Source: an uncultured Gammaproteobacteria bacterium (GTDB lineage Bacteria; Patescibacteriota; Patescibacteriia; Patescibacteriales; UBA12465). Taken from it: DNA of 36,675 nt. The translations under genes were made by a program, and so were the position numbers. The notes beneath the pieces were generated by a model, which was not told where the DNA came from, did not search any database, and saw only the letters and a program-made list of their open reading frames with translations. Shown here piece by piece: positions 4,369 through 35,089 of this stretch; position 1 is the stretch's first letter; each line of letters begins with the position of its first letter. Where the stretch lies: NCBI GenBank assembly GCA_964416495.1, contig CAYQEI010000001.1, forward strand, positions 1 through 36,675, in the 5' to 3' direction.

Positions 4369-5466
4369 ATGGAAAAATCTTTTTTTCATGTTGAGCATGT
4401 AAAAACAATACTAAGTGACAAACTGCAGGCCTTTGGCGTTGATGATTATGTTTTAAACAAATATAGTCAGCTCATCAATAATATTGAATTTATTAATATT
4501 AATCTAGATAAAGATCCGGCCAAGTTACACCTTAAGATGGTGGCAGCTTTATTTTCTCGCCAAGCCGAAAATAATAAAACTTTTCTCAAAAATATTATTC
4601 AACAAGCTGAGCTTGAAGAAATCGATAAGATAATAGTAAGTGACTATAATGAAGATGATGATTTGGGGTTAGAGCAAGTCAAGCTAGAAAACATTGATTT
4701 TGATTTTGGTACTAATAGACGGGTCAATAAAATTGACTGTTTTTTAAAGGATGATAAAGAGATAGCCTTTACTCTTTCAACTGATTTAAGGCAAGTAAGT
4801 GAGCAAGAAAGTAATACCTATTTAGAAAAACAAGTACTTGAAACAGATCAAGCTAAAGCTAACCCTATCTTACAAGACTTATATGGTTATTTTGAACGCG
4901 ACTTTTCTGGTCAGACTGGTCGCTTTATTGCAAAAGAATATCTTCCAGGAAAAAATATTGCTCATTATCTCAAAGACTTGGAGTTAGAAGCTGATTATGT
5001 GAGTGAGTACTACAATATTAGCAATGACTTAGCCTATACTATGGCTAAGATGTATCAAGCTGGTAAAGGTAAGCTACTCTCAGATTTGAAGCTAGAGAAT
5101 CTAATCTATAATTACATTAATCCCGATGAAGTGGAGTACTCTTGTCGCGTCTGTGATAATGCTGGTCCTTATTTAGATCAAGCCAAAGAAAGCAGTGTTG
5201 AGCAAATTCTTTCTCAGCTACAAAGTTTACTTTCTTATCTACACCTCCACAAACTTAGGTTAAAGCAAGAGAATTTAGCTGAGGATATTAGCCAGGAAGA
5301 GATGGTAGCACAATACCTTGATACTTTCTGGACTAATCTTGATGATGACTCCAAAAATATTTTCTATCAAACCCTATTAGCTAGGGAAAAGGGTTCTAAA
5401 CCTGATCTTTTTTCAATTGATGCAGACTTAGAGGCCTTTGTTGTTAGTTATTTAAATAATCTATAG
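4369..5466 (+). CDS. Hypothetical protein with a divergent protein-kinase-like C-terminal half
   Basis: 365-aa ORF. LLSDLKLENLIYN resembles the catalytic loop h-x-D-L-K-x-x-N-i-l. RVCDNAG sits at the DFG-like position. FIAKEYLPGKNIAHYL resembles the hinge region. Confidence 0.35.
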   Translation: MEKSFFHVEHVKTILSDKLQAFGVDDYVLNKYSQLINNIEFININLDKDPAKLHLKMVAALFSRQAENNKTFLKNIIQQAELEEIDKIIVSDYNEDDDLGLEQVKLENIDFDFGTNRRVNKIDCFLKDDKEIAFTLSTDLRQVSEQESNTYLEKQVLETDQAKANPILQDLYGYFERDFSGQTGRFIAKEYLPGKNIAHYLKDLELEADYVSEYYNISNDLAYTMAKMYQAGKGKLLSDLKLENLIYNYINPDEVEYSCRVCDNAGPYLDQAKESSVEQILSQLQSLLSYLHLHKLRLKQENLAEDISQEEMVAQYLDTFWTNLDDDSKNIFYQTLLAREKGSKPDLFSIDADLEAFVVSYLNNL

Positions 5467-5467
5467 T

Positions 5468-6748
5468 ATGAAGAAATATATAATTTTAGCAGTGCTGTTT
5501 ACTGGCATTGTTGTAGTTTTAGTTTTAGTTTTACCCAAATCTAAACTAAGTCCAGAAGAGAATAGTAGCCAAGACTCATCAGCTAACTTAGGCTTAGAGG
5601 AAGAGGAGATTGAATCTAATTTCAATCAGTCCGTTGTTGACCTAGAGCTTAGCCCGCAAGATATGGCAGAGATCGATGTTGACTCAGTCAATATTGACGC
5701 GGTTGCAGTCGGCACAGTTGAGCCCGAAGTTTTGCTAACTACTGTAGCAGAAAATTTGCTAGTGCCTTGGTCTGTAGTCTTCTTGCCCAGTGGTGAAATT
5801 TTGATTTCTGAGCGGTCTGGTAATATCCGTTTAGTTGATAAAGCAGGGGTTTTGCAGGCCAATCCAATTTTTGAGATTCAAGAAGCGATTGAATACGGGG
5901 AAGGTGGTTTGCTGGGTCTAGCTCTACATCCTAATTTTATTGAAAATGGCTTTATCTATGCTTATTATACCTACAAACCAGATAGTAATTACTACAATAA
6001 AGTCGTTCGCTATCGTTACCAGAATGGTAATTTTGATTTCTCAAAAGTAATTATTGACAAGATCCCCGCCGCTTTCTATCATGACGGCGGTCGGATGATT
6101 TTTGGTCCTAATGGTTATTTATTTATTACTACCGGTGATGCCCAGAATTCTAATTTAGCTCAAGACAAGGATTCATTAGCAGGGAAGATTTTACGACTCA
6201 GCGATGATGGTGGTATTGCTCCGGGCAATCCTTTTGCTAGCGCAGTTTATTCCTATGGACACCGCAATCCCCAAGGACTTGCTTTTGATAGCTATGGCCG
6301 GCTCTGGTCAACTGAACATGGTCGCTCAGGGGTATTATCTGGTCTAGATGAACTTAATTTAATTAAGATCGGTGCTAACTATGGTTGGCCGACTATAGAG
6401 GGAGATAAGAGTCACTCTGGAATGGAGAATCCAGTTGCTCACTCAGGTGAAGATTATACTTGGGCACCATCAGCAGCTCTTTACTACCGGGGTTATATTA
6501 TTTTTACCGGTTTAGGGGGCGAAGCTTTGTATGTTGCTAATGTTGAGACTAATGAGACGGTAAGAGTAACTGAATTTTTTAAAGAAGAGTTCGGTCGGGT
6601 AAGGGAAGTTGCCTTAGGCCCTGATAATAATATTTATATTTTAACTAACAATACTGACGGTAGGGGTCGCCTGCGTACAGGAGATGATAAGTTAATTAAA
6701 ATTAATTCTAATTTATTCCTTCAGCAAATAAATGAGCGCTATTACTAA
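5468..6748 (+). CDS. PQQ-dependent sugar (glucose/sorbosone) dehydrogenase family beta-propeller, membrane-anchored or secreted
   Basis: LVPWSVVFLPSGEILISERSGNIRLV, GGLLGLALHPNF, HDGGRMIFGPNGYLFITTGD, GKILRL, YSYGHRNPQGLAFD and ANYGWP are typical sGDH-family motifs. There is an N-terminal TM/signal segment. Confidence 0.8.
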   Translation: MKKYIILAVLFTGIVVVLVLVLPKSKLSPEENSSQDSSANLGLEEEEIESNFNQSVVDLELSPQDMAEIDVDSVNIDAVAVGTVEPEVLLTTVAENLLVPWSVVFLPSGEILISERSGNIRLVDKAGVLQANPIFEIQEAIEYGEGGLLGLALHPNFIENGFIYAYYTYKPDSNYYNKVVRYRYQNGNFDFSKVIIDKIPAAFYHDGGRMIFGPNGYLFITTGDAQNSNLAQDKDSLAGKILRLSDDGGIAPGNPFASAVYSYGHRNPQGLAFDSYGRLWSTEHGRSGVLSGLDELNLIKIGANYGWPTIEGDKSHSGMENPVAHSGEDYTWAPSAALYYRGYIIFTGLGGEALYVANVETNETVRVTEFFKEEFGRVREVALGPDNNIYILTNNTDGRGRLRTGDDKLIKINSNLFLQQINERYY

Positions 6749-7049
6749 TTTCTCTCACTTGGTTTATCAAGCCACTAAAAAGATTCCCAAAGGTAGAGTT
6801 AGCACCTATGCCTTGTTAGCTCATCACTTAGGCAATGATAGGGCTAGTCGGGCGGTTGGCAATGCCTTGAATAAAAACCCCTATGCTCCTATAGTGCCTT
6901 GCCACCGCGTTGTCAAAAGCACTGGTGAGCTTGGTGGCTTTGCTTCCGGGCCAAGAGACAAAAAAGCACTATTAGAAAAAGAAGGGGTGCTAATTAAGCA
7001 GGGTAGAGTCCTTAACTTTGCTCAAATTGTTTACAGATTTGGCGATTAG
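6732..7049 (+). CDS. ogt: MGMT-family methylated-DNA--protein-cysteine methyltransferase (short, C-terminal domain only)
   Basis: 105 aa with the active-site PCHRVV motif and the upstream NxxxxxPCHR context. Overlaps the preceding gene by 17 nt. Confidence 0.8.
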   Translation: MSAITNFSHLVYQATKKIPKGRVSTYALLAHHLGNDRASRAVGNALNKNPYAPIVPCHRVVKSTGELGGFASGPRDKKALLEKEGVLIKQGRVLNFAQIVYRFGD

Positions 7050-7057
7050 ACCTTCTC

Positions 7058-7100
7058 TTTACAAGTGAACGATTGTTTACTATAATTAAATAGTAAACAA
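7058..7100 (+). promoter_or_regulatory. lexA promoter with overlapping inverted-repeat operator candidate
   Basis: TTTACA (7058-7063), 17-nt spacer, TATAAT (7081-7086). A perfect 10-bp inverted repeat TTGTTTACTA (7073-7082) / TAGTAAACAA (7091-7100) spans the -10. A Cheo-box-like GAACgattGTTT lies at 7067-7078. Confidence 0.55.
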
Positions 7101-7104
7101 ATTC

Positions 7105-7674
7105 ATGTTAACTAAACGTAAACAAATCATCACTAAATTCTATCAAGAACGTGGACGCATGCCTCATTATGCTGAGATTATGAAGCTTTTAGATTATAGG
7201 TCAAAAAATTCTGTTTTCCGTTTGGTAAAAAAGCTAGAGGAGGATAAGTTCCTCAAAAAAGATAAACAAGGCAAACTAATTCCACTTAAGCTATCTACCG
7301 AAATAAAATTACTAGGAGAAGTAGAAGCCGGTTTTCCCTCTGTAGCTGAAGAGGAGTTATTAGATAGCCTAAGTTTAGATGAGTTTCTAATTAACAATCG
7401 GGAGGCAAGTTATTTGTTAAGGGTAAGTGGCGACTCGATGAAAGAGGCTGGAATTATGCCAGGTGACTTAGTTATTGCTGATCGTAGTCTTAGCCCAGCC
7501 CCTGGTAATATTGTAATTGCTTCAGTTGATGAGGCTTGGACAATGAAATATTTGCGTAAACAGGGAAATCGAGTTTATCTACAAGCAGCTAATAAAAAAT
7601 ATCCTGATATTTATCCTCAAGCTGAGCTCAAAATCGCTGCAGTTGTAACTGGGGTGATTAGGAAGTATCAATAA
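7105..7674 (+). CDS. lexA: LexA repressor (S24 peptidase with N-terminal winged HTH)
   Basis: VEAGFPSVAEE cleavage-site region, GDSM catalytic Ser motif, a downstream Lys in TMKYLRK, and an N-terminal DNA-binding domain. Confidence 0.85.
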   Translation: MLTKRKQIITKFYQERGRMPHYAEIMKLLDYRSKNSVFRLVKKLEEDKFLKKDKQGKLIPLKLSTEIKLLGEVEAGFPSVAEEELLDSLSLDEFLINNREASYLLRVSGDSMKEAGIMPGDLVIADRSLSPAPGNIVIASVDEAWTMKYLRKQGNRVYLQAANKKYPDIYPQAELKIAAVVTGVIRKYQ

Positions 7675-7680
7675 ATTTGT

Positions 7681-8946
7681 ATGTCTTTGTTTTCCTCAAA
7701 AGCTATTCTCCATGTCGATGCTGACTCCTTTTTTGTCTCTTGTGAGATAGCCCGTCAGCCACAATTAAAAGGACTAGCTGTTGTTACTGGACAAGAAAGG
7801 GGAATAGTATCGGCTTTAAGTTATGAAGCTAAGGCTCTTGGTATTAAGCGGGGAGAGCCAATTTATCAAATTAGGCAAAGACATCCTCAAGTAAAGGTGA
7901 TTGCCTCTGATTATGAGACCTATAGCCTCTACTCCCTTAAAATCTCAGGGATTTTAAGGCGCTATAGTTTAGCAGTAGAGGATTATAGTATTGATGAATG
8001 CTTTGTTGATTTAAGTGGTTTAAGTACTGACTACAAGTCTTTACTTAAAGAAATAAAACAGAGTTTAGAATTAGAGTTAGGCTTTACTTGTTCTTTAGGC
8101 TTAGCTAGCACTAAAGTACTCGCTAAAATCGCCTCTAGCGCTAATAAGCCAAATGGCTTAGTTATTATTGATAATAAAAATATTGATCAGCACCTCAGCG
8201 ACCTTCCAGTCGCTAAAATCTGGGGTATAGGACCTCAGACTAGTAAGCGACTTAATCTTTTAGGGGTAAAGACAGCCCTTGATTTCAAAAATAAACCCTT
8301 AGCTTGGCTCAAAGCGAATTTACATAAGCCCCAAATAGAAATTTGGCAAGAATTACATGGTATCTCTATTTACCCCTTAATAACTGAAACTAGAACCAAC
8401 TATCAATCAGTTGCTAAAACTAAAACATTTAGTCCCCCTAGTAGTGATTTAGATTTTGTTTTAAGTGAGCTCTCCCAAAACCTAGAGCAGGCCTGTGCCC
8501 GTTTGCGTCGCTATAATTTATTAGCTAATAAGCTTAGTTTCTTTCTCAAAACACAGAGCTTTAATTACTATAAATATGAGCTCAAACTAAGCTCAGCTAC
8601 CAATAATCCTTTAGTTTTATTGGCATTAGTTAGTCGGTATATTAATAAAGTTTATCAAGTCAATACACTCTATCGCGCTAGTGGGGTGACTCTATCAGCT
8701 CTAGTACCTTTATTAGCCGATAAGCAACTCGATTTATTTACCGATTTAGTTAAGCAAAAGAAACAAGCCAGTCTCCTTAAATCCTATGACTCTATTTGTG
8801 CCCGCTATGGTAGTGAGAGCATCTTTCTGGCTTCAAGCTTAGCTAGCTTAAACCGTAATAAAACTACTAGTAACAATAGTGATCTCCTACCTCCTGATCG
8901 GCAGAGGAAGAACTTTCCTTTACCTTTCTTAGGTGAGCTCAATTAA
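7681..8946 (+). CDS. Y-family DNA polymerase (UmuC/YqjW-like translesion polymerase)
   Basis: ILHVDADSFFVSCE, SYEAKALGIKRGEP, SIDECFVDLSG, and LGLASTKVLAKIAS..NKPNG followed by KIWGIGP. Confidence 0.85.
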   Translation: MSLFSSKAILHVDADSFFVSCEIARQPQLKGLAVVTGQERGIVSALSYEAKALGIKRGEPIYQIRQRHPQVKVIASDYETYSLYSLKISGILRRYSLAVEDYSIDECFVDLSGLSTDYKSLLKEIKQSLELELGFTCSLGLASTKVLAKIASSANKPNGLVIIDNKNIDQHLSDLPVAKIWGIGPQTSKRLNLLGVKTALDFKNKPLAWLKANLHKPQIEIWQELHGISIYPLITETRTNYQSVAKTKTFSPPSSDLDFVLSELSQNLEQACARLRRYNLLANKLSFFLKTQSFNYYKYELKLSSATNNPLVLLALVSRYINKVYQVNTLYRASGVTLSALVPLLADKQLDLFTDLVKQKKQASLLKSYDSICARYGSESIFLASSLASLNRNKTTSNNSDLLPPDRQRKNFPLPFLGELN

Positions 8947-28428: not shown

Positions 28429-28457
28429 ACTTGAAGGTTAGCCTTCAAGTTTTTTTA
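28429..28457 (+). terminator. Rho-independent terminator
   Basis: ACTTGAAGG (28429-28437), TTAG loop, CCTTCAAGT (28442-28450), then a T7 run. Confidence 0.75.
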
Positions 28458-28504: not shown

Positions 28505-29518
28505 ATGAAAAAGATAAATATTGCTATCAATGGTTTTGGCCGAATTGGCCGTGGTGTTTTTCGCATAATTAGCCAATCTTATCCCCAAGTAAATATAGTG
28601 GCGATTAATGATTTAGCCCCTTTAGCTAACTTAGCTTATCTCCTCAAACATGATACTGCCTATGGTGCTTTCCCTGGTAGTGTCAAAGAAGGTTTTGGTG
28701 GGATAGTGGTAAAAGGGAAGAAGATTCCGGTTTACTCAGAGAAAAATCCAGCTGACTTACCTTGGGCTAAGCATAAAGTTGATGTTGTCTTGGAGTGTAC
28801 TGGAGTATTTCGTGATAAGGAAGGCCTTAGTCTACACCTAAAAGCTGGGGCTAAGAAAGTTGTTCTATCAGCACCAGCTAAATCAAGTGAGGTAAAAATG
28901 ATAGTTCTCGGTGTAAATGAGAAAAAACTCAAAGCGAGCGATCACCTTGTTTCCTGCGCATCTTGTACTACTAATTGCCTTGCTCCAGCAACTGAATTAT
29001 TACGCAAAAAATTTGGTATTAAAAAGGCAGTGATGAGCACTGTTCATGCCTATACTGCGGGACAAAATATAGTTGATGGGCCAAATAAAGATTTACGTCG
29101 TGGCCGAGCTGGTGCCTTAAATATCGTACCAACTACTACTGGTGCAGCCGAGGCAACTACTGCTATTATTCCTGAATTAGGACAGCGTTTTACAGGGATT
29201 TCTTTACGAGTTCCAGTTATTACTGGGTCTTTATGTGACAGTGTTTATTTACTCAAAAAGAAGACTGACTTTGCTACTATCGCTAATGCTTTTAGTCAAG
29301 CAGCTAAAACTAGCCTCAAAGGAATACTGGCGGTAAGCGATGACGGTTTAGTTAGTAGTGATATTATTGGTAGCCCCTATAGCACGGTAATTGATTTAGC
29401 CAGTTCAAGATTAATTGATGGCGATCTACTCAAACTTGTTTCTTGGTATGATAATGAATGGGGCTATTCTTGTCGTTTAATTGAGTTAGCAATAAATGTT
29501 TCTCAGTTTATTAAATAA
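28505..29518 (+). CDS. gap: Type I glyceraldehyde-3-phosphate dehydrogenase
   Basis: INGFGRIGR, the active-site SCASCTTNCLAP, and WYDNEWGYS. TGtTATAAT at 28467-28475. Confidence 0.92.
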   Translation: MKKINIAINGFGRIGRGVFRIISQSYPQVNIVAINDLAPLANLAYLLKHDTAYGAFPGSVKEGFGGIVVKGKKIPVYSEKNPADLPWAKHKVDVVLECTGVFRDKEGLSLHLKAGAKKVVLSAPAKSSEVKMIVLGVNEKKLKASDHLVSCASCTTNCLAPATELLRKKFGIKKAVMSTVHAYTAGQNIVDGPNKDLRRGRAGALNIVPTTTGAAEATTAIIPELGQRFTGISLRVPVITGSLCDSVYLLKKKTDFATIANAFSQAAKTSLKGILAVSDDGLVSSDIIGSPYSTVIDLASSRLIDGDLLKLVSWYDNEWGYSCRLIELAINVSQFIK

Positions 29519-29550
29519 TAAGTTTATTAATAATATAATTTATCAAATGT

Positions 29551-30288
29551 ATGAAGTTAAAAAATAAAGTTGCAATTGTTACTGGAGCCGCTTCAGGCTT
29601 GGGTTTAGGGATAGCTAACTTATTTGTCGAAGAGGGCGCTAAAGTAGTTTACTCAGATTTAGCAAAAGAACATCAAGACCTGGAACTAGACCCTAAAAAT
29701 GCAATTTACTTTCCCGCTGATGTTAGCTCACGGGAGGCAGTTGAGGCCTTAGTCGCTCAGGCAGAAGAACAGTTTGGCCGAGTCGATATCATGGTAAATA
29801 ACGCTGGTATTGGTGGCTTAGGTGGGATTTTGGAGGCTAGTGAAGAGGACTTTGATAGGACCATTAAAGTAAATCTCTATGGTGTTTTCCATGGTACTCA
29901 AGTAGCCGCTCAAACAATGAAGAAAATGGGAAATACAGGTTCAATTATTAATATGAGTTCGATCCTAGGGAACGTCGGCATGCCTCAAACTTTATCTTAT
30001 TGCAGTTCTAAGGGAGGAGTAGTACAGTTGACTCGAGCAGCTGCTCTTGACTTAGCGTTAGATAAAATAAGAGTTAATGCGATTGCGCCTGGTTTCATTA
30101 AGACCAATATGACCAGTGATGTTTTATTAGATAAAAACTTTAGTGAAATGGTTTTGACTAATACGCCTTTAGGTCATGTCGGTGAAGTTATTGACATTGC
30201 TCAAGCAGCACTGTATTTAGCTAGTGATGATTCTAAATATGTTACTGGTATTGTCTTGCCAGTTGATGGCGCTTGGACGGCTAGATAG
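29551..30288 (+). CDS. SDR-family NAD(P)-dependent oxidoreductase
   Basis: TGAASGLG cofactor motif, NNAG, catalytic S...YCSSK, and PGFIKT. Confidence 0.85.
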   Translation: MKLKNKVAIVTGAASGLGLGIANLFVEEGAKVVYSDLAKEHQDLELDPKNAIYFPADVSSREAVEALVAQAEEQFGRVDIMVNNAGIGGLGGILEASEEDFDRTIKVNLYGVFHGTQVAAQTMKKMGNTGSIINMSSILGNVGMPQTLSYCSSKGGVVQLTRAAALDLALDKIRVNAIAPGFIKTNMTSDVLLDKNFSEMVLTNTPLGHVGEVIDIAQAALYLASDDSKYVTGIVLPVDGAWTAR

Positions 30289-30294
30289 ATAATT

Positions 30295-31326
30295 ATGTTA
30301 GGGAATAAGGTTTTGCAAAAAAAAATCGAGCAATTCAATTTGCTGGGCCGGGGTGGAGCAAGCTGTCCAGTTTCTTTGAAGTGGAGGGCCTTCGAAGCTG
30401 AGCTTTCCGCTAATAAGTCGGCTTATCTCATTGTCAATGGAGCTGAGAGTGAACCGGATGTAATTAAAGATGCTTATATAATAAAAAATAAGACTAAGGA
30501 CTTATTGCTAGGACTTGAAGCAATTATAAACTTTATTGGCGCTAAATCCTTAATGAACATTTACATCTACCTCCCCAAGAGTTATTTAGCTTTCACTAAA
30601 AGAAAGCTCAAAGAAAGCTTGCGTGCAACGAAAGCTAATTTAGCTTGGTTTGAAAAAATCAAGTATTTTACTAAACCAGATTTAGGCCAATATATTGCTG
30701 GGGAAGAAACAGTTATTATCAATTTAATTAATCAAAAATTACAACGACCCAGCTTGAAGCCACCTTTTCCCTGTAGCCAGGGGATAAATTCGTTGCCGAC
30801 TTTAGTGCATAATGTCGAAACCATTCACGATATCGGCTTAGTGTCCCAATCTCGCTATCTGGGGAAAAGACATTATACTCTCGCTGGAGAATTACCTCAC
30901 CCTGGTGTTTATGCTCTTGATGCTAAGCTTAGTGTCAAAGATATTTTAGCTAAAACTAATAATACTCCTGATTTTCCTTATTTTTTAGTCTTAGGCGGTG
31001 GAGCACATAGTGTTGTGATAAACAGCAAGCAATTAGATGATACCGTTTGTGGCGCTGGCTTGGTTAAAGTAGTGAGGAATAATAAGACCCAACAAAAGGC
31101 TTTACTAAATTATTATTTGAATTTCTATAGTAATGATAGTTGTGGCTTATGCACCCCTTGCCGGGAAGGGAGTTATCGTCTCAAGGAGCTTTTCAAGCAA
31201 GGCAAGCTCCTTGATGAAAAGGCGCTCACTTTATTGGATAATCTTGAAATTAATAGTTTCTGTGGCCTAGGACCCGGCCTCGCTTCAAGCCTTAAATCGT
31301 TTATAAAAAATGTCTATACTAACTAA
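30295..31326 (+). CDS. NuoF/HydB-like flavoprotein (Complex I 51-kDa family), short form
   Basis: GRGGASCPVSLKW, NGAESEPDVIKD, YIAGEETVIINL, PPFPCSQGINSLPTLVHNVET and the N3-type cluster motif SCGLCTPCREG...FCGLG. Confidence 0.75.
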   Translation: MLGNKVLQKKIEQFNLLGRGGASCPVSLKWRAFEAELSANKSAYLIVNGAESEPDVIKDAYIIKNKTKDLLLGLEAIINFIGAKSLMNIYIYLPKSYLAFTKRKLKESLRATKANLAWFEKIKYFTKPDLGQYIAGEETVIINLINQKLQRPSLKPPFPCSQGINSLPTLVHNVETIHDIGLVSQSRYLGKRHYTLAGELPHPGVYALDAKLSVKDILAKTNNTPDFPYFLVLGGGAHSVVINSKQLDDTVCGAGLVKVVRNNKTQQKALLNYYLNFYSNDSCGLCTPCREGSYRLKELFKQGKLLDEKALTLLDNLEINSFCGLGPGLASSLKSFIKNVYTN

Positions 31327-31334
31327 ACAAAATT

Positions 31335-32075
31335 ATGTCTCAAGCAAATAAGAGTCAGTCAAAACCAAACTCAATTTTAGCTAATTTTGATTATGCAGTT
31401 GATCTTTGGCAGAAGAATTTCAAGAAATTTGCTAGCCTAATCTTAACTGCGCTTCGTCGTAGCTTGCTCCCTTTTATTATTGCTTTAGCAATTAATTATG
31501 GCAGAAGCTTTGCCTATCTTGGCCCAATTATTATTCAATGGATCCTGTTGCTACTGTATTTAGTTGCTTTTGTTTTTATCTTTTATCAAATTATTAAACT
31601 CGAGCTCCAGATTTATTTAGCCGTAAAAGCTAATTATAGTTTCAAGCGGGAAGAGCTTGAGAAGCAAGCGAAAGAATTAATCAAGCCCTATATTGTGTTA
31701 AAGTTAATAATTGGTCTAGTAGTAGCCCTAGGACTAAGCTTATTCCTTATTCCTGGCTTAGTGCTTTCATTCTTTTTAATCTTTGCCCCCTATTACTTTG
31801 TCTTTAAGGCCAATGATGTCAAACAAGCTATTAAATCTAGCCTTTCCTTAGTAAAAAAGAATTGGCTCTATCTCCTCAAAGCCTTTTTATTCCTGATGCT
31901 ATGCCTTTTTGCTTTTTCAATGATAAGCTCATTACCCCTTACTCAATTAGTTCCTAACAGTATTACCACTTCAGGCTACAAATTATTTTTGACAGTGTTA
32001 GCCTTATTCATTTCCCCTATCATCATCATTTATTTTGCTAGGATTTTCTATAGATTTGAAAAATTAAGTAAATAA
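31335..32075 (+). CDS. Polytopic membrane protein, hypothetical
   Basis: 246-aa ORF with about 5-6 hydrophobic segments. No family recognised. It sits between the flavoprotein and the hydrogenase-like gene with 8- and 7-nt gaps. Confidence 0.5.
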   Translation: MSQANKSQSKPNSILANFDYAVDLWQKNFKKFASLILTALRRSLLPFIIALAINYGRSFAYLGPIIIQWILLLLYLVAFVFIFYQIIKLELQIYLAVKANYSFKREELEKQAKELIKPYIVLKLIIGLVVALGLSLFLIPGLVLSFFLIFAPYYFVFKANDVKQAIKSSLSLVKKNWLYLLKAFLFLMLCLFAFSMISSLPLTQLVPNSITTSGYKLFLTVLALFISPIIIIYFARIFYRFEKLSK

Positions 32076-32082
32076 TGAGGCC

Positions 32083-33648
32083 ATGATTACCGTCTATATT
32101 GATAATAAAAAATATCAAGCAAAAAAAGGCCAAACTATTATCTCGCTTTTACTGGAAGCAAAGATTGATTTGGCTTTTTTAGCCTATCACCCTGATTTAG
32201 ATAATTTAGGTGGTGATCGGATAGCCTTAGTTGAAATTGGAGATAACCAGCGCATTGTTAATGCTGAAACCACTAAAGTTTACCCGCAACTAAAAATTTA
32301 TACTGAAACTGAATTAGTCAAGAAGTATCGAAAAGCTAATGCTGAGCTTTTATTTGCTTCTCATAGTGAAAAGTGCGCTACTTGTACTAGACGTTTTAAT
32401 TGTGGACTCTTGTCTCTTGCCCGTCGTGATGGTCTCAATATTGCTACCTACCCAGATCGTAAGTTAAAGCGAAAGACCTTCAAAATTGATCACGCTATCG
32501 AAATAGATAGTAGTCAATGTATTGACTGTGGTAACTGTATTCAAGCTTGCCAGCGTCAAGGCATTAATTACCTTGAATATACTAATACTGCCCACAAGCA
32601 AGAGTTAAGGCCGAGTAGTGATAAAACTAAGATCTGCCTACATTGTGGTCAATGCACTCTAGTTTGTCCAGTTGCCTCAGCTCAAGAACAAGATCAGTGG
32701 GCTCAAGTTGAGACTCTTTTAGCTGACCCAAAAGCAGAAGTTGTCGCTTTACTTGACCCAGCTAGTCGTGTTAGTTTAGGGGAAGCTTTCCAGCTCAGAC
32801 ATAGTGATAGTCAAGATAGTGTTTATTTAGCTTTAGCTAAACTAGGCTTTAGGGATAGCTACGACTTAGCTTTGGGAGCAGAGATGTTAAGTCAAAGAGA
32901 GGCCAAAGAGTTGCTAGAGCGGAAAGAAGCTAAGCAGAAATTGCCTTTAATTAGTAGCGCTTGCCCAGCCTGGTCGCGATATCTAGAGCATTATCAGCCT
33001 AAATTAAAGCCTTATTTGGCTAAATCTAGATCAGCTCAATTATTGCTAGCTCAAGACTTAAGGGCTAATTACAAGACAGCTAAGGACAAAGAGCTTAAGC
33101 TAGTTTCTATCGTTGCTTGTCCTGCTAAAAAGGAAGAAGTCTTAGCTAAGAAGAGCTTTCAGGCTGGGAAGCCTTTGATTGATAATGTTATTACTTTAAG
33201 AGAGTTAGTCTTTATGCTAAAAAAAAGAGATCTGGACTTAGCTAAGCTTAAGGTTAAGCAAACTAAGGTCAAACCAGTCAAACTCAGTGCGATTTCAGCC
33301 CATAGTGGTGGCTTGACTGAGCTGTTAATTAGTAATATATTACAACTAAAAAGTGTGGCTAAAGAGACCCGGAAAAAGATGTTAAGGAATACTCGCTTGC
33401 TTTTGTCTCAAAATGATGGCTTTATCGAACTAAATTTAGAGATTGCTCAAGCAAAATACAGCTTTGCTTGTTTTAATGGTAATGCTAGCTTTATTGAGAG
33501 CAAGGCTGATTGCAGGCAGTATGATTATATTGAAGTGATGGCTTGCCCTGGAGGTTGTCTTGGGGGCGGGGGACAAATCATTCCGACTACTAAGGAGATA
33601 ATTAGCCAGCGTCAAGTTGCTAATTATCGTCTCAGTTTAATCAAATAG
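32083..33648 (+). CDS. [FeFe]-hydrogenase-like protein: Cys-less 2Fe-2S-fold domain, His-ligated 4Fe-4S, 2x[4Fe-4S] and H-cluster domain
   Basis: HSEKCATCTRRFNC (HxxxCxxCx5C), CIDCGNCIQAC and CLHCGQCTLVCP. H-cluster motifs are ISSACPAW (P1 variant), VACPAKKEE (P2) and EVMACPGGCLGGGGQI (P3). Confidence 0.8.
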   Translation: MITVYIDNKKYQAKKGQTIISLLLEAKIDLAFLAYHPDLDNLGGDRIALVEIGDNQRIVNAETTKVYPQLKIYTETELVKKYRKANAELLFASHSEKCATCTRRFNCGLLSLARRDGLNIATYPDRKLKRKTFKIDHAIEIDSSQCIDCGNCIQACQRQGINYLEYTNTAHKQELRPSSDKTKICLHCGQCTLVCPVASAQEQDQWAQVETLLADPKAEVVALLDPASRVSLGEAFQLRHSDSQDSVYLALAKLGFRDSYDLALGAEMLSQREAKELLERKEAKQKLPLISSACPAWSRYLEHYQPKLKPYLAKSRSAQLLLAQDLRANYKTAKDKELKLVSIVACPAKKEEVLAKKSFQAGKPLIDNVITLRELVFMLKKRDLDLAKLKVKQTKVKPVKLSAISAHSGGLTELLISNILQLKSVAKETRKKMLRNTRLLLSQNDGFIELNLEIAQAKYSFACFNGNASFIESKADCRQYDYIEVMACPGGCLGGGGQIIPTTKEIISQRQVANYRLSLIK

Positions 33649-33652
33649 TATT

Positions 33653-35089
33653 ATGGAGATACCAATTTACGTTTTAGATACCCTAAAAACATTACAAACG
33701 GACAATAAGCTAGCTTACTTAGTTGGTGGCTGTGTGCGTGATTTGTTAATGGGGAAAAAACCACTAGATTGGGACATCACTACCAGTGCTAAACCAGCTG
33801 AGATTTTAGCTCTTTTCCCAGAAGCTAAATATGAAAATGATTTTGGTACAGTTTTGTTGCCAATTAAAAAAAACAATGAATTACTCACTGTTTTAGAGAT
33901 TACTACTTTTCGCAGTGAGTCAAACTACCAAGATAAACGTCATCCTAAAAATGTTCAATTTGAAACTGAGCTTGAGTTAGATTTAGCGCGACGTGACTTT
34001 ACCATTAACGCCATTGCTCTTAACCCCTTAGCTGAAAATGAAATTATTGATTTATATGGTGGCCAAAAAGATATTAAAGCTAAGATAGTCCGAGCTATTG
34101 GTGAGCCAAGTGATCGTTTTCGTGAAGATGCCCTGCGTTTAATGCGAGCAGTTAGATTTTGTACTCAACTTGGTTTTGAGCTTGAACCAAAGACAGAAAG
34201 AGCGATAATAAAATTAGCTGGTGCCATTAAATTCATTGCTCAAGAAAGAATTAGAGATGAATTAATTAAAATATTGGCCTCAGATCATCCCAGTGAGGGC
34301 ATCGAGAGTTTACGTCAACTCAAACTACTGCAATATATTATCCCTGAATTAGAGTTAGGATTAAAGGTCAAGCAAGACCGGCATCATATTTACCCAGTCT
34401 ATAAACACAATCTGCTTTCACTCAAGCATTGCCCGAGCCCTAAGTGGCAGGTAAGGCTCTCAGCTCTACTCCATGATATTGGTAAGCCCAAAACGAAAAG
34501 AATTATAAATCAAATTGCAACTTTCTATAATCACGAATATGTCGGCGCTAAAATGGCTGAGAGGATAATGAAGAGATTGCGTTTTAGTAAAAAAGATACT
34601 GATTTAGTGGTAAATTTGATTAAAAACCATATGTTTTATTATAATGTTGGTGAGGTTACCGCTGCTTCAGTTAGACGACTGATAGTTAAAGTAGGTAATG
34701 ATAACTTGAAAGATTTAATGGACCTAAGAATTGCTGATCGCTTGGGTTCAGGCACACCAAAAGCTAAACCATATAAGTTAAGGCATTTAGAATATATGAT
34801 TGAAAAGGTGCAACATGATCCAATTTCTGCTAAAATGCTAGCTATCAATGGTGATGATTTAATTAAGGAACTCAAACTTGAGCCTAGCCCCAAAATTGGA
34901 GCGATATTAGACATCATCTTAGCTAAAGTGATTAGCGAGCCAGAATTAAATGAAAGAAAAAAATTATTAACTTTAGCTAAATCTTTAGAAAAGAAAGATT
35001 TAGCTAGCCTCAGAACTGAGGCTAAAGAATTAATTTCTGGGAAAAGGGAAGAGGAAGATAAAAATATTAAAGCGAAATTTAAAGTCTAA
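33653..35089 (+). CDS. cca: CCA-adding tRNA nucleotidyltransferase with HD domain
   Basis: LVGGCVRDLLMGKKPLDWDITT, RDFTINA, EDALRLMRAVRF and HDIGKP motifs. Confidence 0.88.
   Translation: MEIPIYVLDTLKTLQTDNKLAYLVGGCVRDLLMGKKPLDWDITTSAKPAEILALFPEAKYENDFGTVLLPIKKNNELLTVLEITTFRSESNYQDKRHPKNVQFETELELDLARRDFTINAIALNPLAENEIIDLYGGQKDIKAKIVRAIGEPSDRFREDALRLMRAVRFCTQLGFELEPKTERAIIKLAGAIKFIAQERIRDELIKILASDHPSEGIESLRQLKLLQYIIPELELGLKVKQDRHHIYPVYKHNLLSLKHCPSPKWQVRLSALLHDIGKPKTKRIINQIATFYNHEYVGAKMAERIMKRLRFSKKDTDLVVNLIKNHMFYYNVGEVTAASVRRLIVKVGNDNLKDLMDLRIADRLGSGTPKAKPYKLRHLEYMIEKVQHDPISAKMLAINGDDLIKELKLEPSPKIGAILDIILAKVISEPELNERKKLLTLAKSLEKKDLASLRTEAKELISGKREEEDKNIKAKFKV

What the first reader, a model, noticed from the sequence alone, without database searches (positions are those of the whole stretch)
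28505..33648. Possible NADH-to-H2 redox module interrupted by a polytopic membrane protein (gap - SDR - NuoF-like - membrane - HydA-like)
Five co-directional genes have gaps of 32, 6, 8 and 7 nt, with no visible internal terminator after the one at 28429-28457. GAPDH produces NADH. The short NuoF-like protein retains its NADH/FMN and N3-cluster motifs but has no NuoE/HydC partner here. A 246-aa, ~6-TM protein of unknown family sits exactly between the flavoprotein and the hydrogenase-like subunit. Soluble bifurcating HydABC enzymes have no membrane subunit, so this arrangement suggests a membrane-tethered or ion-coupled variant. Alternatively, the membrane protein is an unrelated insertion.
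Basis: inference. Interest (0 to 1): 0.6.

Follow-up and report, generated by a model that had tools for sequence, protein, structure and literature searches.

The report
Decaying NADH-hydrogenase pair with passenger membrane gene
This tiny Patescibacteria genome carries a lineage-conserved gapA–nuoF-like–hydA hydrogenase cluster, but the membrane gene inside it is an independent passenger and the hydrogenase subunit here looks degenerate, so it is not a new membrane-coupled hydrogenase.

Summary
The five ORFs, their spacings, their domains and the upstream terminator are all as described. The genome is a 686-kb Patescibacteria MAG.

- **Core pair.** The NuoF-like and HydA genes sit next to gapA across the whole order. 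They are present together or missing together in 41 relatives.
- **Membrane gene is separable.** It belongs to the UPF0259/YciC-like family. Two independent lineages (G020, G022) deleted NuoF and HydA but kept it, with its family motifs intact. Two others (G009, G023) lost it and kept NuoF–HydA. In five other families the two genes abut with no membrane gene. Family members also occur in unrelated contexts, such as between rpoB and rpoC.
- **Type of enzyme.** The minimal NuoF-like subunit has non-bifurcating-type residues and no HydC, as in Syntrophus HydAB.
- **No maturases.** No HydE, HydF or HydG was found in any of the 41 genomes.
- **HydA here is degenerate.** It has no [2Fe-2S] cysteines, Ala at the proton-relay Cys, and no C-terminal small-subunit-like domain. 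It breaks 31% of the columns invariant in its relatives and scores below the NCBIfam group A cut-off. Strain differences are mostly nonsynonymous, and its sister genome has lost the gene.

Verdict: an ordinary kind of cluster with an interesting decay series.

The parts
28429..28457 (+). Intrinsic-terminator-like hairpin plus T-run between the PSP1-like gene and gapA. It marks the likely start of the transcription unit.
   Evidence: 9-bp stem, 4 GC pairs, TTTTTTT tail. It lies in the 92-nt intergenic space.
28505..29518 (+). gapA, type I glyceraldehyde-3-phosphate dehydrogenase (337 aa).
   Evidence: TIGR01534, 399.9 bits, over the cut-off. It is retained in all relatives, including those that lost NuoF/HydA.
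29551..30288 (+). Classical SDR oxidoreductase (245 aa), substrate unknown. It is an accessory gene, present in about half of the related clusters.
   Evidence: PF13561/PF00106; NF005559, 243 bits against a cut-off of 215. Variable presence.
30295..31326 (+). Minimal NuoF/HydB-like flavoprotein (343 aa) with FMN, NADH and N3 [4Fe-4S] motifs only.
   Evidence: GRGGA, ESEP..KD, YIAGEET and CGLCTPC...C are all kept. It breaks only 1 of 46 columns invariant in relatives. It is co-inherited with HydA.
31335..32075 (+). UPF0259/YciC-like polytopic membrane protein (246 aa, about 6 TM). It is a passenger gene and is unusually diverged in this genome.
   Evidence: PF06790; hydropathy; AF2 pLDDT 87.7, all-helical; no PDB fold match. 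Separability. It breaks 13 of 24 columns invariant in relatives.
32083..33648 (+). Degenerate group-A-derived HydA-like protein (521 aa). It keeps the His-ligated [4Fe-4S], two ferredoxin-type [4Fe-4S] clusters and the four H-cluster cysteines. It has lost the four [2Fe-2S] cysteines, the proton-relay Cys (SSACP), the residue at the S319 position, Pro354 and the C-terminal Fe_hyd_SSU domain.
33653..35089 (+). CCA-adding enzyme, 4 nt downstream. It shows that the tight co-directional array runs on into unrelated housekeeping genes.
   Evidence: It is syntenic in all genus members.

Best explanation
The region is a vertically inherited array typical of one order of Patescibacteria (Falkowbacteria-like): tsf–PSP1–gapA–(SDR)–nuoF-like–(membrane)–hydA–cca.

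The functional core is the two-gene pair. A minimal flavoprotein (FMN plus one [4Fe-4S]) would take a hydride from NADH. It would pass the electrons through the NuoG-like Fe-S chain of HydA to the H-cluster. This would be a non-bifurcating, HydC-less HydAB-type enzyme that could dispose of glycolytic NADH as H2 at low H2 pressure. This step is inferred from motifs and from co-inheritance.

The 246-aa membrane protein is a UPF0259/YciC-like gene with its own, unknown function. It sits between the two genes but is not a subunit. It and the pair are lost independently of each other.

In this particular genome the hydrogenase subunit is decaying or has been repurposed. The clade first lost the [2Fe-2S] site (also seen in G024). 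This genome then lost the proton-relay Cys and many other invariant residues, plus the C-terminal domain. Its sister genome (G020) has deleted nuoF and hydA altogether. Efficient H2 production here is therefore unlikely.
For: **Synteny and co-inheritance**
- HydA is found in 35 of 41 relatives, about 30 of them strong full-length matches, and NuoF-like in 31 of 41.
- The nine genomes without a real HydA also lack NuoF.
- The order gapA-nuoF-hydA also holds in other families of the order.

**Separability of the membrane gene**
- G022 reads gapA-MEM-cca, and G020 reads gapA-SDR-MEM-cca. Both have intact MEM ORFs that keep the IPG / Y.FFFE / GYxW..GR motifs.
- G009 and G023 read nuoF-hydA with no MEM.
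- In L040, L043, L044 and L045, nuoF and hydA abut or overlap.
- The gapA+cca tree shows these are independent events.
- MEM-family genes also sit in tatD-rmuC, rpoB-rpoC and other unrelated contexts.

**Non-bifurcating type**
- No PF01257 is found.
- The NuoF-like protein has K, Y and GGGAH where bifurcating HydB has M, F and GGPSG (criteria from PMC7311640).

**Degeneracy of HydA**
- The best PDB matches are the CpI C299A (6gly) and S319A (6gm4) mutants.
- Motif table.
- It breaks 36 of 117 columns invariant in relatives, against a median of 1 for the other sequences. NuoF breaks 1 of 46 and GAPDH 2 of 103.
- It scores 239 bits on TIGR02512 against a cut-off of 405.95, while relatives score 424-442.
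- Among 5.8 billion proteins, its nearest relative outside its own 90% cluster is only 46% identical.
- Against a strain variant, 6 of the 10 differences in 12 kb fall in hydA, as 4 nonsynonymous codons and 1 synonymous. The three differences in cca are all synonymous.
- The window is sister to G020, which lacks the hydrogenase.

**Maturases**
- No HydE, HydF or HydG scores over the cut-off in any of 41 genomes.
Against: - MEM has held the same slot between nuoF and hydA through deep divergence: about 18 genus genomes, G038 in another family, and L063. This is more than a transient insertion would predict.
- MEM and HydA are the two proteins that degenerate most in this genome, which could hint at a link between them.
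- Greening et al. 2024 list an uncharacterised 4-6-TM 'hyd6TM' gene next to archaeal group A hydrogenases. I could not test whether it is homologous.
- The hydA ORF is intact in all 7 strain variants, and all [4Fe-4S] and H-cluster cysteines are kept. It may still be functional.
- The polymorphism counts are tiny.
- No L- or D-lactate dehydrogenase family was found in the genome, so an NADH sink is still needed.
- No activity, expression or interaction data exist.
Confidence: 0.65

Rival explanations
1. The membrane protein is a lineage-specific, facultative membrane dock or accessory subunit of the NuoF-HydA enzyme. It would give a membrane-tethered hydrogenase in those genomes that have all three genes.
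For: - The gene keeps the same position between nuoF and hydA in about 18 genus genomes, in G038 (another family) and in L063.
- The gaps are only 7-8 nt.
- MEM and HydA diverge together in this genome.
- Greening 2024 reports 'hyd6TM' genes beside archaeal group A hydrogenases.
Against: - MEM is kept with its motifs intact after two independent deletions of nuoF and hydA.
- MEM is lost twice while nuoF-hydA is kept.
- It is absent from five other families of the order.
- The family occurs in unrelated contexts.
- It has no redox or ion-translocation motifs and no fold match in the PDB.
Confidence: 0.12
2. The window's HydA-like protein is not decaying but neofunctionalised. It could be a slow, sensor-like hydrogenase, or a pure Fe-S electron-transfer partner of the still-intact NuoF-like flavoprotein (an NADH:acceptor oxidoreductase). 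This would parallel group C/D enzymes, which also have Ala at the relay position.
For: - The ORF is intact at 521 aa in 7 strain variants.
- All [4Fe-4S] ligands, the four H-cluster cysteines, K358, E279, E282 and R286 are kept.
- The NuoF core is fully conserved.
- Ala at C299 is typical of putatively sensory groups C and D (PMC10407848).
- The genome needs an NADH sink.
Against: - There is no PAS or extra C-terminal cluster domain.
- No clade of similar proteins exists in 5.8 billion sequences. It is a lone long branch.
- Strain differences are mostly nonsynonymous.
- The sister genome deleted the gene.
- The intermediate [2Fe-2S] relay is lost.
Confidence: 0.2
3. The module works as the first reader proposed for its soluble part. 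This genome's NuoF-HydA is a normal, active NADH-dependent H2-evolving hydrogenase coupled to GAPDH.
For: - gapA-nuoF-hydA adjacency is conserved order-wide.
- H-cluster ligands and the L3 motif are intact.
- Archaeal and some eukaryotic HydA enzymes work without HydEFG (PMC11216029).
Against: - C299 and the S319 position are both Ala. C299 is described as the first, critical residue of the group A proton pathway (PMC10407848).
- The [2Fe-2S] ligands and the Fe_hyd_SSU domain are lost.
- 31% of the columns invariant in relatives are broken.
- The protein fails the TIGR02512 cut-off.
- No maturases are found.
Confidence: 0.08

Closest known systems
Non-bifurcating NADH-dependent [FeFe] hydrogenase HydAB of Syntrophus aciditrophicus (Losey et al. 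2020, PMC7311640); NCBIfam NF040763 'group A6'
   Same: - Two-gene HydA plus NuoF-like flavoprotein, with no separate HydC.
- The beta subunit has the non-bifurcating signature: K rather than M, Y rather than F, and no GGPSG.
- The HydA N-terminus is NuoG-like.
- NF040763 is the best-scoring NCBIfam model for both the window and its relatives.
   Different: - The flavoprotein here is much smaller (about 340 aa, FMN plus N3 only).
- All scores are below the A6 cut-off: 312 bits for the window and 584-620 for relatives, against 765.
- No HydEFG is found anywhere in the order.
- The window's HydA also lacks the relay Cys, the [2Fe-2S] site and the C-terminal domain.
Electron-bifurcating HydABC (group A3; Thermotoga maritima, PDB 7P5H)
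   Same: HydA is homologous to Nqo3 and HydB to Nqo1. PDB chains 7p5h_A and 7p5h_B are significant matches.
   Different: - There is no HydC/NuoE.
- HydB has no N-terminal [2Fe-2S] or C-terminal 2x[4Fe-4S] domains.
- The bifurcation-diagnostic residues are absent.
Putatively sensory group C/D [FeFe] hydrogenases (TmHydS, TamHydS)
   Same: Ala replaces the proton-relay Cys (CpI C299), and the canonical proton pathway is partly lost.
   Different: - There is no PAS domain and no extra C-terminal cluster.
- The protein derives from group A Patescibacteria HydA, not from groups C or D.
- It is a single lineage with no conserved clade.
Maturase-less archaeal [FeFe] hydrogenases and their neighbouring 'hyd6TM' gene (Greening et al. 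2024, PMC11216029)
   Same: - HydA genes in small-genome episymbionts without HydEFG.
- An uncharacterised 4-6-TM gene next to group A hydA.
   Different: - This is a bacterial (Patescibacteria) lineage.
- Homology between MEM and hyd6TM could not be tested, because the supplement is not held.
- MEM here is shown to be separable from the hydrogenase.
UPF0259/YciC, GPDPase_memb and DUF975 membrane protein families
   Same: Pfam PF06790 matches 12 of 13 orthologues. The topology is about 6 TM, with a conserved IPG...E loop motif.
   Different: The match to the window's copy is marginal (32.0 against 31.4 bits). No member of the family has a known function or a solved structure.

Membership tests
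[FeFe] hydrogenase, group A (catalytic HydA) | Four cysteines ligating the H-cluster (CpI C300, C355, C499, C503) and the L3 motif | tested here: met
   SSACP, VACPAKK and EVMACPGGCLGGGGQ keep all four Cys, K358 and M497.
[FeFe] hydrogenase, group A (catalytic HydA) | L1 motif TSCCP with the proton-relay Cys (C299), and an intact proton pathway (E279, S319, E282, R286) | tested here: not met
   the best PDB matches are the CpI C299A and S319A mutants; the window reads SSACP with Ala at the S319 position, while all 20 relatives read (T/S)(S/A)CCP with Thr there. E279, E282 and R286 are kept.
[FeFe] hydrogenase, group A (catalytic HydA) | Score over the curated NCBIfam TIGR02512 cut-off | tested here: not met
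   239 bits against a cut-off of 405.95. Relatives score 424-442 and pass.
[FeFe] hydrogenase, group A (catalytic HydA) | HydE, HydF and HydG maturases in the genome | tested here: not met
   Searches cover the own genome (92% complete). Searches find 0 of 41 relatives over the cut-off, including single-contig genomes. An absence in MAGs is 'not found', not proof.
[FeFe] hydrogenase, group A (catalytic HydA) | H2 evolution or oxidation activity | not testable with these tools
   This needs recombinant enzyme with artificial maturation, a gas assay and FTIR.
Electron-bifurcating HydABC (group A3) | HydC/NuoE thioredoxin-like [2Fe-2S] subunit | tested here: not met
   no PF01257 in the genome.
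Electron-bifurcating HydABC (group A3) | HydB with extra Fe-S domains and the bifurcating signature (A/E and M in the NADH loop, F near FMN, GGPSG) | tested here: not met
   only PF01512 and PF10589 are present. The sequence reads PDVIKD, GQYIAGEE and GGGAH. Criteria are from PMC7311640.
Non-bifurcating NADH-dependent HydAB | NuoF-like beta subunit with FMN, NADH and N3 motifs and non-bifurcating residues (K/S/A, Y, no GGPSG; T/S at TmHydB position 232) | tested here: inconclusive
   K, Y and the absence of GGPSG are met. Position 232 is Val, which is neither T/S nor A/E. Positions were read from the alignment to Aquifex NuoF, not to TmHydB directly.
Non-bifurcating NADH-dependent HydAB | Beta subunit encoded with and co-inherited with HydA | tested here: met
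   the two genes are adjacent in every cluster and are both absent in the same nine genomes.
Membrane-bound or ion-coupled hydrogenase complex | Membrane subunit obligately co-inherited with the catalytic subunits | tested here: not met
   MEM occurs without NuoF/HydA (G020, G022), and NuoF/HydA occurs without MEM (G009, G023 and five other families).
Sensory [FeFe] hydrogenase, groups C/D | Ala at the relay position, plus a PAS domain or an additional C-terminal [4Fe-4S] domain | tested here: not met
   Ala is present. There is no PAS or extra cluster domain, and the C-terminus is shorter than in relatives.
UPF0259/YciC (PF06790) | Score over the Pfam gathering threshold | tested here: met
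   32.0 against 31.4 bits, a marginal pass. 12 of 13 orthologues match, and the precomputed PF06790 assignment appears on most database homologues.

The most novel reading that the evidence does not exclude
The relatives' HydA proteins keep every H-cluster and proton-pathway residue under clear constraint across an entire order. Yet none of the 41 genomes, including closed ones, encodes HydE, HydF or HydG. The most novel reading not excluded is that these episymbiotic Patescibacteria make an active, minimal two-subunit NADH hydrogenase. Its H-cluster would be built by an unknown route, or from host-derived precursors. That would be a bacterial counterpart of the maturase-less archaeal enzymes. 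The window's genome would then capture the decay of this system. A weaker add-on is that the UPF0259-like protein is a facultative membrane dock for the enzyme.
Probability: 0.25. Interest if true: 0.75.

Novelty: new variant of a known kind. Interest (0 to 1): 0.35.

Why it matters
The proposed membrane-tethered [FeFe] hydrogenase would have been a new enzyme architecture. The comparative data argue against it, which saves experimental effort on that idea.

Three modest points remain:
1. An order of Patescibacteria keeps a very small HydAB-type NADH-linked hydrogenase next to gapA, with no known maturases. This bears on how H-clusters are made outside the HydEFG paradigm, and on how ultra-small fermenters dispose of NADH.
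2. One clade offers a stepwise natural decay series: [2Fe-2S] loss, then loss of the relay Cys and the C-terminal domain, then deletion. This shows which parts of HydA go first under relaxed selection.
3. A UPF0259-family membrane gene of unknown function is under selection independently of its neighbours.

Tried and rejected
- **Homology to archaeal 'hyd6TM'.** This could not be tested. The supplement of PMC11216029 is not held.
- **Fold search of the MEM model.** The confident AF2 model (pLDDT 87.7) gave no PDB match with E<=0.001. The best was choline-transporter-like proteins with TMq 0.46 and E about 1. No function could be inferred.
- **Genome-contig scan with the MEM alignment.** I used the genome search and the search for homologous proteins instead.
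- **Multimer modelling.** Only single chains can be modelled.
- **Whole-genome acceleration as the cause of HydA divergence.** I considered and rejected this as the full explanation. The window's housekeeping branch is long (0.44 against a median of 0.15). But GAPDH and NuoF break about 2% of the columns invariant in relatives, against 31% for HydA and 54% for MEM.
- **Group C/D sensory membership.** Considered and rejected, because there is no PAS or extra cluster domain.
- **CPR literature.** Searches found treatment of NiFe 3b hydrogenases but no description of this gapA-nuoF-hydA cluster.

Full report
**1. The observation**

One search lists five co-directional ORFs exactly as described, with gaps of 32, 6, 8 and 7 nt:
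- gapA, 28505-29518
- an SDR, 29551-30288
- a 343-aa NuoF-like protein, 30295-31326
- a 246-aa hydrophobic protein, 31335-32075
- a 521-aa HydA-like protein, 32083-33648

Pfam and NCBIfam confirm the assignments. GAPDH passes TIGR01534. The NuoF-like protein has PF01512 plus PF10589 only. HydA has Fer2_4, a NuoG-type His-ligated cluster region, two ferredoxin-type clusters and PF02906.

The hairpin and T-run at 28429-28457 is found. No NuoE/HydC (PF01257) is found in the genome.

The array does not end at hydA. cca starts 4 nt later, followed by a PPIase and a cysteine desulfurase. Tight spacing is therefore a property of this compact genome and not of a dedicated operon.

The genome is 686 kb in 41 contigs and about 92% complete. 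Record titles of close relatives read 'Patescibacteria group bacterium' and 'Candidatus Falkowbacteria'.

**2. The conserved core**

I searched 40 relatives: 24 in the same genus and 16 from other families of the order.
- HydA is found in 35 of 41 genomes, about 30 of them strong full-length matches.
- The NuoF-like protein is found in 31 of 41.
- The nine genomes without a real HydA (G001, G003, G004, G020, G022, G027, G028, G033, G040) also lack NuoF.

In 20 fetched loci the order tsf–PSP1–gapA–(SDR)–nuoF–(MEM)–hydA–cca–ppi holds throughout the genus. gapA–nuoF–hydA also holds in several other families. NuoF-like and HydA are therefore a co-inherited and co-lost pair.

gapA adjacency is conserved too, but so is adjacency to tsf and PSP1. 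gapA also stays where the pair is lost. Metabolic coupling of GAPDH to the pair is thus plausible but remains an inference.

**3. The membrane gene is separable**

MEM lies between nuoF and hydA in most genus members, in G038 (another family), and in a metagenome contig, L063. Four lines of evidence show it is nonetheless independent.

- **Kept without the hydrogenase.** G022 reads gapA–MEM–cca and G020 reads gapA–SDR–MEM–cca. Both flanking hydrogenase genes are gone, while MEM is an intact ORF. Both copies keep the family's conserved IPG, Y.FFFE and GYxW..GR motifs.
- **Lost without the hydrogenase.** G009 and G023 read nuoF–hydA with no MEM.
- **Absent elsewhere in the order.** In L040, L043, L044 and L045, nuoF and hydA abut or overlap. 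L041 has an unrelated 120-aa soluble protein in the slot.
- **Found in unrelated contexts.** Homologues with the same motifs sit between tatD and rmuC, between rpoB and rpoC, and in other unrelated neighbourhoods.

A gapA+cca tree places G020 as sister to the window and G022 in a different clade. It nests G009 among MEM-bearing genomes, while G023 is basal to the large clade. So there were at least two independent losses of the pair that kept MEM. There were also two independent absences of MEM with the pair kept.

On its family and fold:
- MEM belongs to the UPF0259/YciC-like family (PF06790, 12 of 13 orthologues).
- It models confidently as an all-helical bundle of about 6 TM (pLDDT 87.7).
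- It has no solved structural relative.
- Its function remains unknown.

**4. What kind of enzyme the pair is**

The flavoprotein is minimal, at about 340 aa in all relatives. It keeps the FMN loop (GRGGA), the NADH loop (ESEP..KD), the YI.GEE motif and the four N3 cysteines.

Losey et al. (PMC7311640) give criteria that separate bifurcating from non-bifurcating beta subunits. By those criteria it has K rather than M, Y rather than F, and no GGPSG. It also has no extra Fe-S domains and no HydC. That is the non-bifurcating, NADH-only pattern of Syntrophus HydAB.

Relatives' HydA proteins pass NCBIfam 'group A' (TIGR02512, 424-442 bits against 405.95). They score best on the 'NADH-dependent group A6' model, though below its cut-off.

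**5. No maturases**

HydG, HydE and HydF models find nothing over the cut-off in the window's genome. They also find nothing in any of the 41 genomes, including single-contig ones.

Greening et al. 2024 report the same situation for most HydA-bearing archaea and argue for an alternative maturation route. I found no paper describing this for Patescibacteria.

**6. This genome's HydA is degenerate**

Motifs and residues:
- Aligned to CpI, the best PDB matches are the engineered C299A (6gly) and S319A (6gm4) mutants. The window's protein carries Ala at both positions.
- All four [2Fe-2S] cysteines are replaced. This is also the case in G024.
- TSCCP has become SSACP, and MPC has become VAC.
- The GGVME.ALR segment is rewritten.
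- The C-terminal Fe_hyd_SSU domain (about 45 aa) is missing.
- The His-ligated and ferredoxin-type [4Fe-4S] cysteines, the four H-cluster cysteines, K358, E279, E282 and R286 are kept.

Quantitative comparison with the 20 relatives:

| Protein | Columns invariant in relatives that the window breaks |
|---|---|
| HydA | 36 of 117 (31%) |
| MEM | 13 of 24 (54%) |
| NuoF | 1 of 46 |
| GAPDH | 2 of 103 |
| CCA | 22 of 242 |

The other sequences break a median of 0-2 such columns. Identity ratios tell the same story. The protein also fails the TIGR02512 cut-off, at 239 bits.

Among 5.8 billion proteins, its nearest relative outside its own 90% cluster is only 46% identical. It is a lone long branch, not a conserved new subfamily.

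Within the population, seven 521-aa variants differ at four residues. Against a strain contig of 12,055 nt there are 10 differences:
- Six fall in hydA, as four nonsynonymous codons and one synonymous (binomial p about 6e-4 for the clustering).
- The three in cca are all synonymous.

The window's sister genome, G020, has deleted nuoF and hydA. The next relative, G024, has lost only the [2Fe-2S] site. Together these look like a stepwise decay series.

PMC10407848 describes C299 as the first residue of the group A proton pathway. It is replaced by Ala in the slow, putatively sensory groups C and D.

I conclude that efficient H2 production here is unlikely (about 0.65). A repurposed Fe-S partner of the intact flavoprotein remains possible. 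No L- or D-lactate dehydrogenase family was found in the genome, while a 2-oxoacid:ferredoxin oxidoreductase is present.

**7. Comparison, novelty and limits**

The cluster is of a known kind: group A HydA plus a NuoF-like diaphorase. NCBI already labels the relatives as group A hydrogenases. The variant features are:
- the very small flavoprotein
- the absence of HydC
- the order-wide absence of HydEFG
- the decay seen in this genome

An earlier first-reader note of this scan (e1-3809689) had flagged the cluster-less ferredoxin fold and the Ala at the relay Cys on this same gene. I confirmed both independently.

Limits of this analysis:
- No multimer modelling could be run.
- Absences in MAGs are 'not found' rather than proven.
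- The polymorphism counts are small.

Noticed in passing
G001-G040 (relatives); window genome G000: About 30 genomes of the order encode a HydA with fully canonical H-cluster and proton-pathway motifs. None of the 41 genomes searched has HydE, HydF or HydG over the NCBIfam cut-offs, including single-contig genomes G005 and G007.
   Followed up: partly
L027 (G024) 6570-8267: The second-closest relative's HydA has also lost all four [2Fe-2S] cysteines of the N-terminal ferredoxin-like domain. It is otherwise canonical: TSCCP is kept, it passes TIGR02512, and it breaks only 2 of 83 columns invariant in the other relatives. Loss of this cluster therefore preceded the further decay seen in the window.
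   Followed up: partly
L063 347-745 and 4439-4702: In a related metagenome cluster a NUDIX gene sits between gapA and nuoF. A TM1266-like gene (PF21699) directly follows hydA.
   Followed up: no
L045 (G035) 5372-7089: In one family of the order, nuoF-hydA is preceded not by gapA but by a small 2x[4Fe-4S] ferredoxin-like ORF and by ORFs resembling 2-oxoacid:ferredoxin oxidoreductase gamma and beta subunits. These were read from the sequences and not scanned against Pfam.
   Followed up: no
L055 4440-5405: A 321-aa member of the same UPF0259-like membrane family lies between rpoB and rpoC in another Patescibacteria-like MAG. This is an unusual insertion into that normally contiguous pair.
   Followed up: no
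window 32781-34018: Differences from a strain variant (L061) cluster in about 1.3 kb spanning hydA and the start of cca: 9 of the 10 differences in 12 kb. This could be relaxed selection on hydA or a short recombination tract.
   Followed up: partly
G000 whole genome: No Ldh_1_C or 2-Hacid_dh_C family member and no NiFe hydrogenase were found. One POR_N (2-oxoacid:ferredoxin oxidoreductase) gene is present on contig C4. How this organism reoxidises NADH is not obvious if HydA is inactive.
   Followed up: partly
L041 (G032) 4463-4825: A 120-aa soluble, Cys-containing protein (…ATCCRGCLSKWH…) occupies the slot between nuoF and hydA in place of the membrane gene. The nuoF-hydA junction seems prone to insertions.
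   Followed up: no
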